From the NCBI RefSeq assembly GCF_009914755.1, contig NC_060932.1: a stretch of DNA of 64,000 nt. The stretch is one strand, 5' to 3'. Source of the stretch: the human T2T-CHM13v2.0 reference genome, Homo sapiens. Under the pieces are notes generated by a model, which saw nothing but the letters and a program-made list of their open reading frames with translations, searched no databases and was not told the origin of the DNA. The first letter of the stretch is position 1; each line of letters opens with the position of its first letter. Both the position numbers and the translations under genes were made by a program. Below, piece after piece: positions 10,434 to 19,623 of this stretch.

Positions 10434-11076
10434 TGTTACTGGAAAGCGGTCCTGATCCAGATCCCAAGAGAGGGTTCTTGGACCTCACAAAAGAAAGAAT
10501 TCAGGGTGAATCCATAGAGTAAAATGAAAGCAAATTTACTAAGAAAGTAAAGGAATAAAAGAATGGCTACTCCACAGGCAGAGCAGCCCTGAGGGCTGCT
10601 GGTTGGCTATTTTTGGGGTTATTTCTTGATTATATGCTAAACAAGGGGCAGATTATTCATGAGTTTTCTGGGAAAGAGGTGGTCAATTCCCGGAACTGAG
10701 GGTTCCTCCCCTTTATAGACCATATAGGGTAACTTCCTGATGTTGTCATGGCATTTGTAAACTGTCAGGGTGCTGGTGGGAGTGTCTTTTAGTATGAGAA
10801 TTAATTATAATTAGCATATAATAACAGAGAGGACAACTAGAGGTCACTTAGAGGTCACTTTTGTCACTGTCTTGGTTTTGGTGGGATTTTGGCAGGGTTC
10901 TTTCCCACATCCTTTTATCAGCAAGGTCTTTGTGACCTGTACCTTGTGCCAACCTCCTATCTCATCCTGTGACTTAGAACGCCTAGCCTCCTGGGAATGC
11001 AGCCTAGTAGGTCTCAGCCTTGGTTTACCCAGGCCCTATTCAAGGTGGAGTTGCTCTAGTTCAAACACCTCTGACA
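10434..11076 (-). mobile_element. MER41 (MER41B-like) ERV1 solo LTR
   Basis: Reverse complement begins TGTCAGAGGTGTTTGAACTAGAGCAACTCC. Tandem GAS motifs at 10666 and 10687. Near-TSD ctcc/ttcc. Confidence 0.88.
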
Positions 11077-11924
11077 TTCCTATATCCGAGCCAACCTACA
11101 GGACAACCTCTATCATCATTTTCCTCTAACTTCTATTTTTCCCAGTTTTCCTACCTCTCTCTCATTGTGCTCATTTTTCAGTAATAAACAAAGACCAAAA
11201 AATTACATATATGTGTTTCTACGACAAAGATTTTGTTTCTTGCTAGAGATAAAAAATTCTCTAGCACAATAAATGTGTCTAAAATCTATTTAAAACTTAA
11301 GACACAGAAAAATAGCTAGAAAAATCCATAAAACCAAAGGCAATGCTTTTTCTTTCAGCAGATTATGGTGTTTTTTTTTTTTGGCATATGTTTTCCTGAA
11401 GGGGTGATCTTTGGTGCCCAGAGAAACATAGAGCCTATTTATTGATTGTTGTCTAAAATTGACTTTTTGGGTCAATTGTATTTTCTTAAACATCTTAATA
11501 TTGTTGTTTCGCATTATAATCAAAATGCTACCTTCAGCCAGCACTTCAGACCAATTAGTAGGCTATAAACTATTTGGTCATCATAGAACCAATGCATTAA
11601 TTGTCTGTAATTAACCTCATTCATAAGAATGGAATATGAAAAAAGTATAATTTTACTACAGCTTGTATCAGTTCAAATTAGGTTCAGGTTGATACAACAC
11701 TTGGTTGCTTTCTCTTGCAAAGGGATTTTGTAAGTAGGCAGTTTGGTGTGAGTGTGGCAAGGTACCCCAAATTCATTAAGGACTCAATCTCCTTCAGGCT
11801 GTCAGATCTATAGTCTCTAGCGTGTGGTCCTTATACTCATGGTCTAAGGTGTCTGGTGCTCCAGTAATCTCTTCCAGGGTTCAGGCTGGCAGCAAAAGAG
11901 AAAGAATAAACACAGAACAGTTTC

Positions 11925-12201
11925 AGAGCCTTGCTCTATCGCCCAGGCTGGAGTGCAATAGCACAATCTTGGCTCACTGCAGCCTCTGCCTTCTGGGTTA
12001 GAGCAGTTCTCACGCCTCTGCCTCCTGAGTAGTTGGAATTACAAGTGCCCACCACCATGCCCAGCTAATTTTTGTATTGTTAGTAGAGACGGGGTTTCAC
12101 CATGTTGCCCAGGCTGGTCTCGACCTCCTGACCTCAGGAGATCCGCGTACCTCGGCCTCCCAAAGTGCTGGGATTACAGGCATGAGCCACCACTCCCTGC
12201 C
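11925..12201 (-). mobile_element. Alu
   Basis: Dimer, tail degenerate. Confidence 0.88.
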
Positions 12202-12580
12202 AGAACACTTCCTTTATAAGACTTCTCAGAAGACTATGCAGTATTTTGACTTACATTTCTATGACAAGTACTTAGATACCTGACTGAGTCAACTTCAAAT
12301 GATACTAGGAAATGTCATCTTTTAACTGGACAGCAATGCACCAACCAAAAATTGGAGATATATTACTGCAGAAAAAAGAGAGACTAAATAGGGAAAAGAA
12401 ATTTGTATTTCTTGCCACTGTCTTAACATAAATAATATCACAATGATTGAAAGATGCTACAGCTCTTTCATAACACTGAATTCTGTTAAAAGATAAAGCA
12501 GATAAAAATCTGATTTAAAAATATAAAACCCTTTTCAATCCGTATGGGATATCATCAGAATTTCAAAAATAAAGTTTCAA

Positions 12581-12898
12581 CTGGGCGAGGTGGCTCACGC
12601 CTGTAATCCCAGCACTTTGGGAGGCCGAGATGGGCGGATCATGAGGTCAGGAGATCGAGACCATCCTGGCTAACACGGTGAAGCCCCATCTCTACTGAAA
12701 ATACAAAAAATTAGCCAGGCATGGTGGTGGGTGCCTGTAGTCCCAGCTACTCGGGAGGCTGAGGCAGGAGAATGGCATGAACCTGGGAGGCTGAGCTTGC
12801 AGTGAGCCGAGATCGTTCCACTGCACTCCAGCCTGGGCGACAGAGCGAGACTCCGTCTCAAAAAAAAAAAAACAAACAAACAACAACAACAACAAAAA
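12581..12898 (+). mobile_element. AluY-like
   Basis: GAGATCGAGACCATCCTGGCTAACACGG diagnostic segment. Confidence 0.9.
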
Positions 12899-16760: not shown

Positions 16761-18093
16761 ATCTTCTCTGGGTTTCACCTCCAAGGTCAGATAGGGAGAT
16801 ACATCATTTACAGATGGGAACTGATTCTGACATTTAATTTCTTTTTCAACAATCCAAGTTTCTCGTGTTTAGTGCTCTATGGAGCCAGTGGCCCACTCTT
16901 GTTCAGCGAGCTAGAAATGGAAAAAATTATCCATTGGAAAAGGAAGTAGGTGTCAGAATCGAATCACCCAGTGCCCACTTTTGCAGGCTGTGGGTTTAGA
17001 GTTGCCCTGGAGCTCCTGGAATACCATATCCCCCAGCAGACCAACCTCAGGGGTCCACAGTGTGCCATACCTCACCAGGTATCCCCCAGACCCCTGTGCT
17101 GTTACCAACCCACCCCCAACACCATCTCCAATTCATAGCAAGACCCAATAACCAGCCAATCTAAACCTACTCCCGGCAAGTCTCAGAGCCCCAGAGTCAC
17201 TCAAAGACACACAAAGTACTCTTTATATGCACCTGCTACATGACCGGACCTCAGCCCTCTCATCTCATTTGCCAACAACTGTGAGGCATTTACTGTTATC
17301 ACCATTTTATGGGTGAGAAAACAGGGGCTCTGCTAAGATAGGTAACATTTCCCAAGTCATAGAGCCTGTGGGTGACAGAGCCAGGAATTGAAAGTAGCTT
17401 TTTCTGGCAAGAATGCTCAGGCTCTTTACACCGTGGAGACCTGTTTCCACGGGCCAGGAATCTGGGCCAACAGTGGATTGCAGCCCAGGAGCACTGATTA
17501 GCATTTGAGCTATGGCCTGGATGCCAGGAAAGGGTCCCACATTCAAAGTCGCATCTCTGGTGCTCACTGTCCCCAGCGAGAAGCTCTTGTAGGAGGATCT
17601 CTATGTGGAATAATTTGCATTAAGGGATAAACGAGGCTTAGCCTTCCTAACAAGTAATGAAGTTTTTAAAACAGAAACTTGAGCCCATGGTTACTAGAAT
17701 GTGAGGGAAATCCATGGGCCTGTGTGTGGGGCATGGGGTGTTCAGGGGTGTCAAGGGACTCTCCTCTTACATAAGATCTTTGAAACAGAAAGGGATCCTA
17801 TTTTGCTTCTCTTTTTCTTTGTTTCAGGACAGGTTTCCACAAAGCAAGTATAAACATGGTTTAATATAAATTCCCACAGTCAGTTTACAAATTTCTTTTT
17901 CATTTAACACCCTCCCTCACCTTGTTCTAAGTAGGAATTGAAGAAGAGATTGTTGGAACACAGATCTATGTATTTATACAGCATTTACTGGGCACCTTTT
18001 TACCAGATTCTGAGCTCAAGCTTCAAAGCTTGAAATATAAAAATCAAAATAAAATGCTTGGCTCCAAAAAACTCAGTCTCTGGTGGATATATA

Positions 18094-18916
18094 CAGTTGA
18101 CCCTTGATCAACGCAGGTTTGAATGTGAGTCAAAACCTATTTATATGTGGATTTTTTTTCCAATGAAATTTACACTGAAGGTTCGGCATGGTGGCTCATG
18201 CCTGTAATCCCAGCACTTTGGGAGGCCGAGGGGGGCAGATCACTTGAGGTCAGGAGTTTGAGACCAGCCTGGCCAACATGGTGAAACCCCGTCTCTACTA
18301 AAAATACAAAAAGTAGCCAGGCATAGTGGCATGTGCCTGTAATCCCAGCTACTCGGGAGGCAGAGGCTCGAGAATCATCTGAACCTGGGAGGTGGAGGTT
18401 GCAGTGAGCCAAGACTGCACCACAGCACTCCAGCCTAGGTGACAGAGAGAGACTCTCTAAAAAAAAAAAAAAAAAAAAAAGTAAACTGAGTGTGCCTGTC
18501 TCTCCTGCTCCCCCTTCCTTCCACCTCTTCCACCTCTTCTACCTCTGCTACCCACCCACCCCCAACCCCTCCTCTTCCTCCTCTTCTGCAGCCTACTCAA
18601 CATGAAGACAACAAAGATAAAGACCTTTAGGATGATCTCCTTCCACTTAATGACTAGTAAACACATTTGCTCTTCCTTATGATTTTCTTAGTAACATTTT
18701 CTTTTCTCTAGCTAGCTTACTTTATTGTAAAAATATAGTATGTAATACATGTAACATGCAAAATATGTGTTGATCAACTGTGGATGCCATCAGTAAGGCT
18801 TCTGGTCAATGGGATGCGATTGCTAGTTACATTTTGGAGGAGTTAAGTTATATGCAGATTTTTGACTGTGCAGGGGGTCGACGCCCCTAACCCTTGAGTT
18901 TTTCAAGGGTCAGCTG
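18094..18916. mobile_element. Tigger2-type TcMar DNA transposon with a nested Alu (18181-18480, +)
   Basis: Terminal inverted repeats CAGTTGACCCTTGA / TCAAGGGTCAGCTG, preceded by TA. Confidence 0.85.
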
Positions 18917-18996
18917 GAATTGTCTTGGGTGCTGAGGTAGCTCGCAAGAGGAAACAGTAAAATACCAGGAAGAGACATTTTAGCTGAGACTTGAAG

Positions 18997-19623
18997 TCTT
19001 CCTGGAAAGGGGTCCCAATCAGACCCCAAGAGAAGGTTCTTGGATCTCACACAAGAAAGAATTCAGGGTGAGTCCATAGAGTAAAATGAAAGCAAGTTTA
19101 TTAAAAAAGTAAAGGAGTAAAGAATGGCTCTTCCACAGACAGAGCAGCAGCTTGAGCTACTCAACCAAGGATACTTATATACTGCTTGACTGTATGCTGA
19201 ACAAGGGGTGGCTCATTCATGAGTTTTCTGGCAAAGAGGTGGGCAATTCCTGGAAATGAGGATTCCTCCCCTTTTTAGACCAGGGTAACTTCCTAATGTT
19301 GCCATGGCATTTGTAAGCTGTCTGTGCACTGGTGGTAACGTCTTGTAGCATATTGATTCATTATAATTACTGTATTATGAGCAGTGAGGACAACCAGAGG
19401 TCAGTTTGTTTGCCATCTTGGTTTTGGCAGATTTTGGCCGGCGTCTTTACCACATGCTGTTTTATCAGCAAGGTCTTCGTGACCTATATCTTGTGCCGAC
19501 CTCCTGTCTCATGGTATGACTTAGAATGCCTAACCGCCTGGGAATGCAGCCCCGTAGGTCTCAGCCTTATTTTACCCAGCCCATGTTCAAGGTGGCACAG
19601 CTCTGGTTGGAATGCCTCTGACC
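18997..19623 (-). mobile_element. MER41 (MER41B-like) ERV1 solo LTR
   Basis: Colinear with the copy at 10434-11076 over its whole length. Near-TSD gaag/taag. Confidence 0.88.

What the first reader, a model, noticed from the sequence alone, without database searches (positions are those of the whole stretch)
10434..19623. Three MER41 LTRs within 9 kb retain STAT GAS motifs: a candidate retroviral interferon-responsive enhancer cluster upstream of MFHAS1
Seen: three apparently independent MER41 solo LTRs. Copy 1 keeps both tandem GAS sites intact (TTCTGGGAA 10666-10674, TTCCCGGAA 10687-10695). Copy 2 keeps one (TTCTGGGAA 13757-13765; the second is degenerate). Copy 3 keeps one (TTCCTGGAA 19247-19255) and has another at its edge (18999-19007). 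Established: MER41B LTRs are STAT1-bound, IFN-gamma-inducible enhancers (e.g. at AIM2), and MFHAS1 is reported to modulate TLR signalling in macrophages. Inference: this unusually dense cluster, about 43-52 kb from the promoter, could place MFHAS1 or the next gene beyond the left edge under primate-specific JAK-STAT control.
Basis: partly seen in the sequence, partly recalled or inferred. Interest (0 to 1): 0.72.

Follow-up and report, generated by a model that had tools for sequence, protein, structure and literature searches.

The report
Three old MER41 solo LTRs
Three separate remnants (solo LTRs) of an ancient monkey-era retrovirus family called MER41 lie within 9 kb upstream of MFHAS1, and they keep interferon-type STAT binding motifs about as often as other copies of this family do, so the site is ordinary unless binding data show otherwise.

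Summary
All five quoted TTCNNNGAA motifs are at the stated coordinates. Three 601-643 bp copies of one dispersed repeat lie at 10434-11076, 13384-13984 and 18997-19623.

They are independent solo LTRs. Each has closer relatives elsewhere in the genome than in this cluster, and their flanks are single-copy DNA or unrelated repeats.

The name MER41 rests on print: a 26-base motif ascribed to MER41B, the 21-bp tandem GAS spacing, presence of the 43-bp segment that MER41A lacks, and full-length alignment to the MER41B elements near IFI6. The exact subfamily letter needs Dfam.

Distance-based branch lengths of 0.076-0.143 give about 35-65 My, using a recalled rate. This agrees with the printed 45-60 My.

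Keeping at least one GAS motif is normal for this family: 54 of 60 and 21 of 25 sampled copies do. The AIM2 example is now reclassified as an ERV-Saru LTR.

Enhancer activity on MFHAS1 could not be tested here. RefSeq lists no functional element over the cluster, and no paper pairs MER41 with MFHAS1. The finding is ordinary and of low interest.

The parts
10434..11076 (-). MER41 solo LTR, copy 1 (643 bp). Termini are TG...CA. It carries a private 11-bp tandem duplication. The sense strand (U3-R-U5) is inferred to be the window's minus strand.
   Evidence: Genome search gave full-length hits covering query positions 1-643 at 82-85% identity, with 4194 first-look candidates and 39 scored. Both flanks are single-copy. 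The flanking 4-mers match 3 of 4. The duplication is absent from 97 of 97 sampled copies. The sense strand is inferred from AATAAA on the opposite strand in 63 of 92 copies; copy 1 has AGTAAA there.
13384..13984 (+). MER41 solo LTR, copy 2 (601 bp). It is the most diverged of the three and has a private 34-bp deletion. Sense is inferred to be the window's plus strand.
   Evidence: Genome search gave a best full-length identity of 79% and partial hits at 81-84%, with 3876 candidates and 40 scored. The right flank is single-copy. The left flank has 213 unmatched bases and then an unrelated 230-bp repeat. The deletion is shared by 0 of 98 copies. The flanking 4-mers match 1 of 4.
18997..19623 (-). 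MER41 solo LTR, copy 3 (627 bp). Both terminal dinucleotides are mutated. Sense is inferred to be the window's minus strand.
   Evidence: Genome search gave a best identity of 83%, with 3993 candidates and 40 scored. The 3' flank is single-copy. The 5' side abuts, after about 80 bases, an unrelated high-copy repeat. The flanking 4-mers match 3 of 4.
10666..10695 (.). Complete tandem GAS pair of copy 1: TTCTGGGAA 10666-10674 and TTCCCGGAA 10687-10695, 21 bp centre to centre. It is the only complete tandem in the window.
   Evidence: The 21-bp spacing is the one printed for the MER41B and MER41E consensus (PMC2897888, passages).
13757..13786 (.). GAS pair position of copy 2. 13757-13765 is intact (TTCTGGGAA; the family CpG has decayed). 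13778-13786 is one base off the motif.
19226..19255 (.). GAS pair position of copy 3. 19226-19234 is one base off (TTCTGGCAA). 19247-19255 is intact (TTCCTGGAA; the family CpG has decayed).
18999..19007 (.). Extra TTCCTGGAA inside the first 11 bases of copy 3. It is a private one-base change: copies 1 and 2 read TTACTGGAA and TTACCAGAA at this place.
   Evidence: 0 of 63 sampled copies have a motif at these columns.

Best explanation
These are three independent solo LTRs of the MER41 family. MER41 is the LTR of a gammaretrovirus-like ERV that entered simian ancestors. All three are of the type that carries the 43-bp STAT segment (MER41B-like, not MER41A).

Each LTR is what remained after the two LTRs of a separate provirus recombined and the interior was lost. 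That origin is inferred; what was shown is that no interior is present. The copies are roughly 35-65 million years old.

The GAS motifs were part of the virus's own promoter/enhancer region and have decayed at about the neutral rate. Copy 1 happens to keep both sites. Copies 2 and 3 have each lost one site by a single base.

Most likely behaviour: largely inert relics. Copy 1 is a plausible interferon-gamma-inducible STAT1 binding site where chromatin is permissive (my estimate about 0.3). A measurable effect on MFHAS1, ERI1 or the predicted gene LOC124901866 is unlikely (about 0.05-0.1).

Shown: identity, independence, solo state, age range and typical motif retention. Inferred: the mode of origin, the sense strand, and all statements about binding.
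For: Repeat and bounds. Full-length genome hits at 79-85% identity, with 3876-4194 first-look candidates per copy.

Independence. The K2P distance from copy 1 to copy 3 ranks 93 of 101 among copy 1's distances. In the NJ tree each copy pairs with a different copy from elsewhere. The outer flanking 4-mers match 0 of 4 for a copy1-copy3 provirus, against 3 of 4 and 3 of 4 for each copy alone.

Solo state. The flanks are single-copy or unrelated repeats.

Name from print.
- Motif M2 of Table 1 in PMC2897888, said there to resemble MER41B, hits copy 1 with 2 mismatches and copy 2 with 3. Copy 3 has 4 mismatches, counted by eye.
- The genome holds 2468 hits of this motif at up to 3 mismatches, and 0 for the reversed control. 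Several exact hits lie inside the best relatives of all three copies.
- The 43-base gap printed as the MER41A mark is seen in 13 of 97 sampled copies, in 0 of 60 closest relatives, and in none of the three window copies.
- All three copies align over their full length to the element 18 kb from IFI6, which carries the same tandem GAS. Print calls the elements near IFI6 MER41B.

Age. NJ terminal branches are 0.076, 0.101 and 0.120, against a median of 0.078 for the other 84 of the 87 sequences in the tree. Three-point estimates are 0.091, 0.143 and 0.143, against a sample median of 0.097. Print gives 83-91% similarity to consensus and 45-60 My, and entry in a simian ancestor.

Motif retention is typical. 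With a branch length near 0.09-0.10 and 12 fixed motif bases, neutral survival of both sites is about 0.3 (inference). Observed values are 7 of 25 and 26 of 60.
Against: A uniform Poisson model expects only 0.07-1.6 triplets this tight in the whole genome. The clustering may therefore have a cause that I did not identify.

No ChIP, chromatin, contact or expression data could be consulted. Supplements are closed, so the published lists of STAT1-bound or promoter-contacting MER41 copies (Chuong 2016, not held; Raviram 2018) might include these copies.

The subfamily letter (B versus C, D, E or G) was not established, because no Dfam or RepeatMasker library was available.

Copies 2 and 3 have longer branches than the family median. 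This may reflect a different subtype rather than greater age.

The flanking 4-mers of copy 2 match only 1 of 4.

The samples are biased. The top hits are the best-preserved copies, and the 40-copy sample requires the 26-mer to be intact.
Confidence: 0.85

Rival explanations
1. One reading: the three LTRs form a primate-specific, STAT-dependent, interferon-responsive enhancer cluster that controls MFHAS1 or the next gene to the left.
For: Copy 1 has the complete 21-bp tandem GAS that print links to the strongest induced STAT1 binding in MER41B. Copies 2 and 3 keep one site each. The median MER41-to-contact distance in print is about 163 kb, so 43-52 kb is within reach. MFHAS1 is reported to act in TLR and macrophage polarisation pathways (PMC5520684; search listing and start of abstract only). 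The local density exceeds the uniform expectation.
Against: Motif retention is the family norm. In print most MER41 copies show no ChIP signal: 327 of 3452 captured copies overlapped any HeLa peak. Only 3 of 175 IFN-gamma-induced genes contacted a MER41. RefSeq lists no enhancer or other functional element over 10434-19623, while it lists some elsewhere in the window. No paper holds both MER41 and MFHAS1. The listings of two searches for MFHAS1 with interferon terms showed no report of induction; I saw listings only.
Confidence: 0.07
2. Copies 1 and 3 (same orientation, 8.56 kb start to start) are the two LTRs of one degraded provirus into which copy 2 and the Alus were inserted.
For: Same strand and provirus-like spacing. 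Copies 1 and 3 are the most similar pair in the window at 79.3%.
Against: Copy 1 has at least 38 closer relatives elsewhere at 82-85% identity. Its distance to copy 3 ranks 93 of 101. The 830 bases after copy 1 are single-copy in the genome. The DNA before copy 3 is an unrelated repeat with terminal inverted repeats. The outer flanking 4-mers match 0 of 4.
Confidence: 0.02
3. The clustering is not chance. The site was open, enhancer-like chromatin in the germ line of early simians, and this gammaretrovirus-like virus preferred to integrate there. The cluster would then record ancient chromatin state rather than present function.
For: There were three independent insertions in 9.2 kb and none in the other 85 kb examined. 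The uniform expectation is 0.07-1.6 such triplets genome-wide. A preference of gammaretroviruses for active regulatory regions is established knowledge that I recall; no call shows it.
Against: I could not obtain the genome-wide spacing distribution of MER41. Survival bias, such as regions that tolerate insertions, gives the same pattern.
Confidence: 0.15
4. The LTRs act as constitutive placental (trophoblast) enhancers bound by GATA2/3 and MSX2 rather than as interferon elements.
For: Print reports many MER41A/B/C copies as constitutively active trophoblast enhancers, distinct from the IFN-induced ones (PMC10069462, passages).
Against: Nothing specific to this locus was found. RefSeq lists no functional element here.
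Confidence: 0.04

Closest known systems
MER41B LTRs near IFI6 (named in Raviram 2018, PMC6292174)
   Same: Full-length homology to all three window copies: 623 bp, blastn identity 75-77%, K2P 0.24-0.29. Both carry the 43-bp segment and the tandem GAS at the same alignment columns with 21-bp spacing.
   Different: The IFI6 elements have published contact with, and an effect on, an interferon-induced gene. The window copies have none in print. I identified the IFI6 elements by position only: they are the only two matches in the 77 kb fetched around IFI6.
MER41A LTRs
   Same: Same family. In the sample, K2P between the types is 0.198, against 0.155-0.207 within types.
   Different: MER41A lacks the STAT1 motif through a 43-bp deletion (review PMC9963469, passages). 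13 of 97 sampled copies show that gap, and the three window copies do not.
The AIM2 upstream enhancer LTR ('MER41.AIM2'), reclassified as ERV-Saru by Frith 2025 (PMC11905727)
   Same: A tandem GAS with the same 21-bp spacing and similar flanking bases, at L004 4339.
   Different: Only 90 bp align to copy 1, at 74%. [quoted passage not shown] It is therefore a poor model for the window copies.
The SECTM1 upstream element, called MER41 in Schmid and Bucher 2010
   Same: A tandem GAS 21 bp apart, 5.1 kb upstream of the annotated SECTM1 end.
   Different: No blastn similarity to any window copy at E of 0.01 or better. It is evidently a distant subtype.

Membership tests
MER41 LTR family (ERV1, gammaretrovirus-like) | Sequence homology to named MER41 copies over the whole LTR | tested here: met
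   All three copies align end to end with the element 18 kb from IFI6, which print names MER41B. The anchor was identified by position only.
MER41 LTR family (ERV1, gammaretrovirus-like) | Carries the printed 26-base motif ascribed to MER41B (PMC2897888, Table 1, M2) | tested here: met
   Copy 1 has 2 mismatches and copy 2 has 3. Copy 3 has 4, counted by eye. The genome holds 2468 hits against 0 for the reversed control.
MER41 LTR family (ERV1, gammaretrovirus-like) | Assignment by the Dfam/RepeatMasker library, including the subfamily letter | not testable with these tools
   No repeat library is on hand. The mask table in /data carries no family names and does not list copy 2 at all.
MER41 LTR family (ERV1, gammaretrovirus-like) | Thousands of dispersed copies of about 600-640 bp | tested here: met
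   3876-4194 first-look candidates per copy. Scored hits are 599-644 bp on many chromosomes. Print gives 7190 copies for all subfamilies.
MER41 LTR family (ERV1, gammaretrovirus-like) | LTR termini TG...CA and a 4-bp target-site duplication | tested here: inconclusive
   Copy 1 has TG...CA. Copies 2 and 3 have one or both ends mutated. The flanking 4-mers match 3, 1 and 3 of 4. The 4-bp length comes from print on related ERVs.
MER41 LTR family (ERV1, gammaretrovirus-like) | Present in simians only (age 45-60 My) | not testable with these tools
   No primate genomes are available. Branch lengths of 0.076-0.143 fit the printed 83-91% similarity to consensus and 45-60 My.
MER41B-type (STAT-segment-bearing) as against MER41A | Presence of the 43-bp segment with the STAT1 motif | tested here: met
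   All three copies have the segment. 13 of 97 sampled copies lack 42-60 bases there, 10 of them exactly 43. The criterion is from a review's paraphrase of Chuong 2016.
MER41B-type (STAT-segment-bearing) as against MER41A | Two GAS sites 21 bp apart | tested here: met
   Fully met in copy 1. In copies 2 and 3 the spacing is kept but one site is a single base off the motif.
Interferon-inducible ERV-derived enhancers | Induced STAT1 binding and induced active chromatin at the element | not testable with these tools
   No ChIP or chromatin data are available. RefSeq lists no functional element over the cluster.
Interferon-inducible ERV-derived enhancers | A linked gene that responds to interferon and contacts the element | not testable with these tools
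   No paper holds both MER41 and MFHAS1. Two listings for MFHAS1 with interferon terms showed no report of induction (listings only). Supplements are closed.
Provirus with paired LTRs (copies 1 and 3) | The two LTRs are each other's closest relatives, share one target-site duplication, and enclose repeated proviral interior | tested here: not met

The most novel reading that the evidence does not exclude
The cluster, led by copy 1 with its intact tandem GAS, is a simian-specific interferon-gamma/STAT1-responsive enhancer hub. Through it a TLR-pathway regulator (MFHAS1), or ERI1 on the other side, came under JAK-STAT control in anthropoid primates. The three independent insertions could mark an ancient integration hot spot in germ-line open chromatin.
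Probability: 0.07. Interest if true: 0.5.

Novelty: already known. Interest (0 to 1): 0.15.

Why it matters
If these LTRs did drive MFHAS1 or ERI1 in response to interferon, this would be one more case of retroviral rewiring of primate innate immunity, at a gene tied to TLR signalling and sepsis. It would be a clean example because three copies sit together.

As it stands, the locus shows that a GAS motif in a MER41 copy carries little information by itself, since most segment-bearing copies keep at least one. It also shows that the textbook AIM2 example belongs to a different, low-copy LTR type and should not be used as the model for ordinary MER41B copies.

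Tried and rejected
(1) AIM2 anchor. I fetched 71 kb of the 73-kb span chr1:158,193,000-158,266,000 around AIM2; bases 158,203,000-158,204,999 were not fetched. The only match to the window copies was 90 bp at 74% around the tandem GAS. I rejected it as an anchor. Frith 2025 explains the weak match: the element is an ERV-Saru LTR.

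(2) SECTM1 anchor. The 23 kb fetched gave no blastn match. A tandem GAS does lie 5.1 kb upstream of the gene. This result goes against a simple 'all MER41 are alike' picture, and I report it as such.

(3) Provirus hypothesis for copies 1 and 3: rejected.

(4) The mask table in /data. It has no family names, covers copies 1 and 3 only in part and does not list copy 2, so it was of no use for typing.

(5) Genome-wide spacing of MER41 copies. The tools list only the best 39-45 scored hits, or the first 100 pattern hits, so I used a Poisson estimate only.

(6) Chuong 2016 (PMC4887275) is not held. Its content is known here only through passages of PMC9963469, PMC6452852, PMC10069462 and PMC6292174.

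(7) I did not translate any stretch, list any reading frames, fetch any proviral interior or build any consensus. Naming did not need inner genes.

(8) The neutral rate of 2.2e-9 per site per year, the names Alu, 'L1 3'-end-like' and 'Tigger-like', and the remark on gammaretroviral integration preference are recalled. They come from no call.

Full report
WHAT IS THERE

Repeat finding and blastn of the region against the whole window show three copies of one element and no fourth:
- copy 1 at 10434-11076;
- copy 2 at 13384-13984, inverted relative to the other two;
- copy 3 at 18997-19623.

Pairwise blastn identities are 79.3% (copies 1-3), 75.5% (1-2) and 72.8% (2-3).

A search of the reference genome with each copy returns full-length matches on many chromosomes, from 3876-4194 first-look candidates. 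Only 39-40 candidates were scored in each search, so these counts are lower bounds. Best identities are 82-85% for copy 1, 80-83% for copy 3, and 76-79% for copy 2 over its full length. A subgroup matches copy 2's last 450-480 bases at 81-84%. The matches begin and end at the first and last bases of my bounds, which fixes the element's ends.

INDEPENDENT SOLO LTRs, NOT A PROVIRUS

Copies 1 and 3 lie on the same strand, 8.56 kb apart start to start, which is provirus-like. I therefore tested whether they are the two LTRs of one provirus. They are not.
- Every one of the 38 non-self hits of copy 1 (82-85%) is closer to it than copy 3 is (79%).
- In a MAFFT alignment of the three copies with 100 fetched copies, the K2P distance from copy 1 to copy 3 ranks 93 of 101. 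From copy 3 to copy 1 it ranks 27 of 101. In a neighbour-joining tree of 87 near-full-length sequences (the three window copies and 84 others), each window copy pairs with a different copy from elsewhere.
- The 830 bases after copy 1 and the 147 bases before it are single-copy in the genome.
- The 608 bases to the right of copy 2 are single-copy. To its left lie 213 unmatched bases and then an unrelated 230-base repeat.
- The 977 bases after copy 3 are single-copy. Before it lies an unrelated high-copy element with inverted ends.
- Flanking 4-mers match 3 of 4 for copy 1, 1 of 4 for copy 2 and 3 of 4 for copy 3. The match is 0 of 4 when the left flank of copy 1 is compared with the right flank of copy 3.

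None of the three copies has proviral interior beside it.

FAMILY

No repeat library is available, so the name rests on print and on comparison with copies that print names.

(a) Schmid and Bucher 2010 (PMC2897888; passages, section 6 with Table 1) report a 26-base MEME motif that resembles MER41B.
- It matches copy 1 with 2 mismatches and copy 2 with 3. Copy 3 has 4 mismatches by my count.
- The genome holds 2468 matches at up to 3 mismatches, and none for the reversed control.
- Exact matches fall inside the best relatives of all three copies.

(b) The same paper states that the MER41B consensus has two GAS sites 21 bp apart centre to centre. Copy 1 has exactly this arrangement. Copies 2 and 3 keep the spacing, with one site a single base off the motif.

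(c) A review's paraphrase of Chuong 2016 (PMC9963469, passages) says that MER41A differs from MER41B by a 43-bp deletion that removes the STAT1 motif.
- In my sample, 13 of the 97 copies that span this region lack 42-60 bases there, and 10 of them lack exactly 43.
- All 13 are in the 40-copy sample taken from the motif list. None is among the 60 closest relatives of the window copies.
- All three window copies carry the segment.

(d) Raviram 2018 (PMC6292174, passages) names MER41B elements about 20 kb from IFI6.
- In the 77 kb that I fetched around IFI6 there are two matching elements, 18 and 23 kb from the gene's start.
- One is full length (623 bp) and aligns end to end with all three window copies, with the tandem GAS at the same alignment columns.

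The three copies are therefore MER41 LTRs of the segment-bearing, MER41B-like type. Whether Dfam would label each of them B rather than C, D, E or G cannot be decided here.

The AIM2 element aligns to copy 1 over only 90 bases at 74%, around the GAS pair. Frith 2025 (PMC11905727, passages) states that the AIM2 enhancer is unambiguously a full-length ERV-Saru LTR, a low-copy type that may be seen as a MER41 variant.

The element 5 kb upstream of SECTM1, which Schmid and Bucher call MER41, has a 21-bp tandem GAS. It shows no blastn similarity to the window copies.

The tandem GAS is thus shared by rather distant LTR types. The best-known functional example is not a close relative of the copies in this window.

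AGE

Ages come from pairwise K2P distances.

| Estimate | Copy 1 | Copy 2 | Copy 3 | Other copies (median) |
|---|---|---|---|---|
| NJ terminal branch, all sites | 0.076 | 0.101 | 0.120 | 0.078 |
| NJ terminal branch, CpG sites dropped | 0.075 | 0.086 | 0.108 | 0.069 |
| Three-point estimate against 24 segment-bearing sample copies | 0.091 | 0.143 | 0.143 | 0.097 |

At 2.2e-9 substitutions per site per year (a recalled, commonly used rate), these values correspond to about 35-65 My. Print gives 83-91% similarity to consensus and entry 45-60 My ago, and entry of all MER41 subtypes in a simian ancestor. The longer branches of copies 2 and 3 may include divergence between subtypes.

Private changes:
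- an 11-bp tandem duplication in copy 1, absent from 97 of 97 copies;
- a 34-bp deletion in copy 2, shared by 0 of 98 copies;
- the extra GAS-like motif in the first 11 bases of copy 3, found in 0 of 63 copies.

ARE THE MOTIFS SPECIAL?

They are not.
- Among the 60 closest relatives, 26 keep both sites, 28 keep one and 6 keep none.
- In the 40-copy sample, 15 have the region mostly gapped: 13 with the deletion and 2 truncated copies. Of the other 25, 7 keep both sites, 14 keep one and 4 keep none.
- Near-full-length copies carry 1.23 motifs on average. The window copies carry 2, 1 and 2.
- With about 0.09-0.10 substitutions per site and 12 fixed motif bases, neutral survival of both sites is about 0.3 (inference). 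This matches the counts.

The right-hand site survives in copies 2 and 3 because its family CpG lies in the three free middle positions. It decayed there without breaking the pattern.

IS THE CLUSTER SPECIAL?

There is no other copy in the 64-kb window or in the 30 kb to its left.

A uniform model expects 0.07, 0.32 or 1.59 triplets within 9190 bp in the whole genome, for 2468, 4194 or 7190 copies respectively. The cluster is therefore near the extreme of what chance gives, but it is not clearly beyond chance. MER41 clusters are in print at IFITM, and a pair lies near IFI6. An old integration or retention hot spot remains possible.

FUNCTION

Nothing available here bears directly on binding.
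- RefSeq lists no functional element over 10434-19623. It does list silencers and enhancers at 38855-39120, 41635-42265 and near the MFHAS1 start.
- No paper in the library holds both MER41 and MFHAS1.
- Two searches for MFHAS1 with interferon terms gave listings with no evident report of induction. I read only the listings.

Printed base rates are low.
- 292 STAT1 sites lie in about 4 Mb of MER41.
- 327 of 3452 captured MER41 copies overlapped any HeLa ChIP peak.
- Only 3 of 175 IFN-gamma-induced genes contacted a MER41.

My estimates follow. Copy 1, with the complete tandem, has perhaps a 0.3 chance of inducible STAT1 binding in some cell type. A measurable effect on a neighbouring gene has a chance of perhaps 0.05-0.1. 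The candidate genes are:
- MFHAS1, whose start lies 43-52 kb to the right;
- ERI1, whose start lies 56.5 kb to the left;
- the predicted gene LOC124901866, 17.5 kb to the left.

ORIENTATION

An AATAAA signal lies on the strand opposite to the orientation in which I aligned the copies. It is present in 63 of 92 sampled copies and in copies 2 and 3. Copy 1 has AGTAAA at that place.

I therefore infer that the sense strand (U3-R-U5) is the window's plus strand for copy 2 and its minus strand for copies 1 and 3. This places the GAS pair in the upstream, promoter-proximal part of the LTR. It is an inference only.

VERDICT

The elements are ordinary, long-annotated members of a known family. The regulatory hypothesis is legitimate but rests only on motifs that most such copies keep. 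Supplementary tables that I could not open may already settle whether any of the three copies is bound.

Noticed in passing
window 18094-18916: An element with imperfect terminal inverted repeats: 19 of 24 end bases are complementary. An Alu-like insert splits it at about 18179-18478. Its right part has 3506 first-look relatives in the genome at 75-79% identity. It looks like a Tigger-type DNA transposon relic; that name is recalled, not tested.
   Followed up: partly
window 12935-13170: A 230-base repeat with 958 first-look relatives at 74-81% identity. By eye it resembles the 3' end of a LINE-1; that name is recalled, not tested.
   Followed up: partly
window 9949-10286, 11907-12203, 12584-12880, 14603-14870, 15598-15922, 18179-18478: Six Alu-like repeats in and around the cluster. 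Five of them lie between copies 1 and 3 (and the sequence). They account for about 1.5 kb of the spacing. The name Alu is recalled.
   Followed up: no
L004 4339-4368 (chr1:158,214,339), in the AIM2 span: A tandem GAS with the same 21-bp spacing in an LTR that otherwise barely resembles the window copies. Print now calls this LTR ERV-Saru.
   Followed up: partly
L002 2984 (chr17:83,207,983), 5.1 kb upstream of SECTM1: A tandem GAS 21 bp apart in DNA with no blastn similarity to the window copies, and only 65 bp at 69% to the AIM2 element. The LTR type is unknown to me.
   Followed up: partly
L118 2712-3859 (chr1:27,536,187-27,537,334), near IFI6: A second MER41 copy 5 kb from the first. About 600 bases of inserted DNA split it, and its tandem GAS is intact in the left piece. 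The insert was not examined.
   Followed up: no
hits, e.g. chr9:106,521,246-106,522,193: A subgroup of copies matches copy 2 better over its last 450-480 bases (81-84%) than any full-length copy does (76-79%). Their first about 110 bases lie a few hundred bases away. This may be a subtype with extra DNA near one end. It was not resolved.
   Followed up: no
window as a whole (chr8:10,788,001-10,852,000): In this assembly MFHAS1 is on the plus strand, with ERI1 (minus strand) to its left. From recall, GRCh38 shows the opposite orientation for this 8p23.1 segment. I did not check this, and it does not change which genes neighbour the cluster.
   Followed up: no
window 10838-10859: A perfect 11-bp tandem duplication inside copy 1. 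It is absent from 97 of 97 sampled copies.
   Followed up: yes
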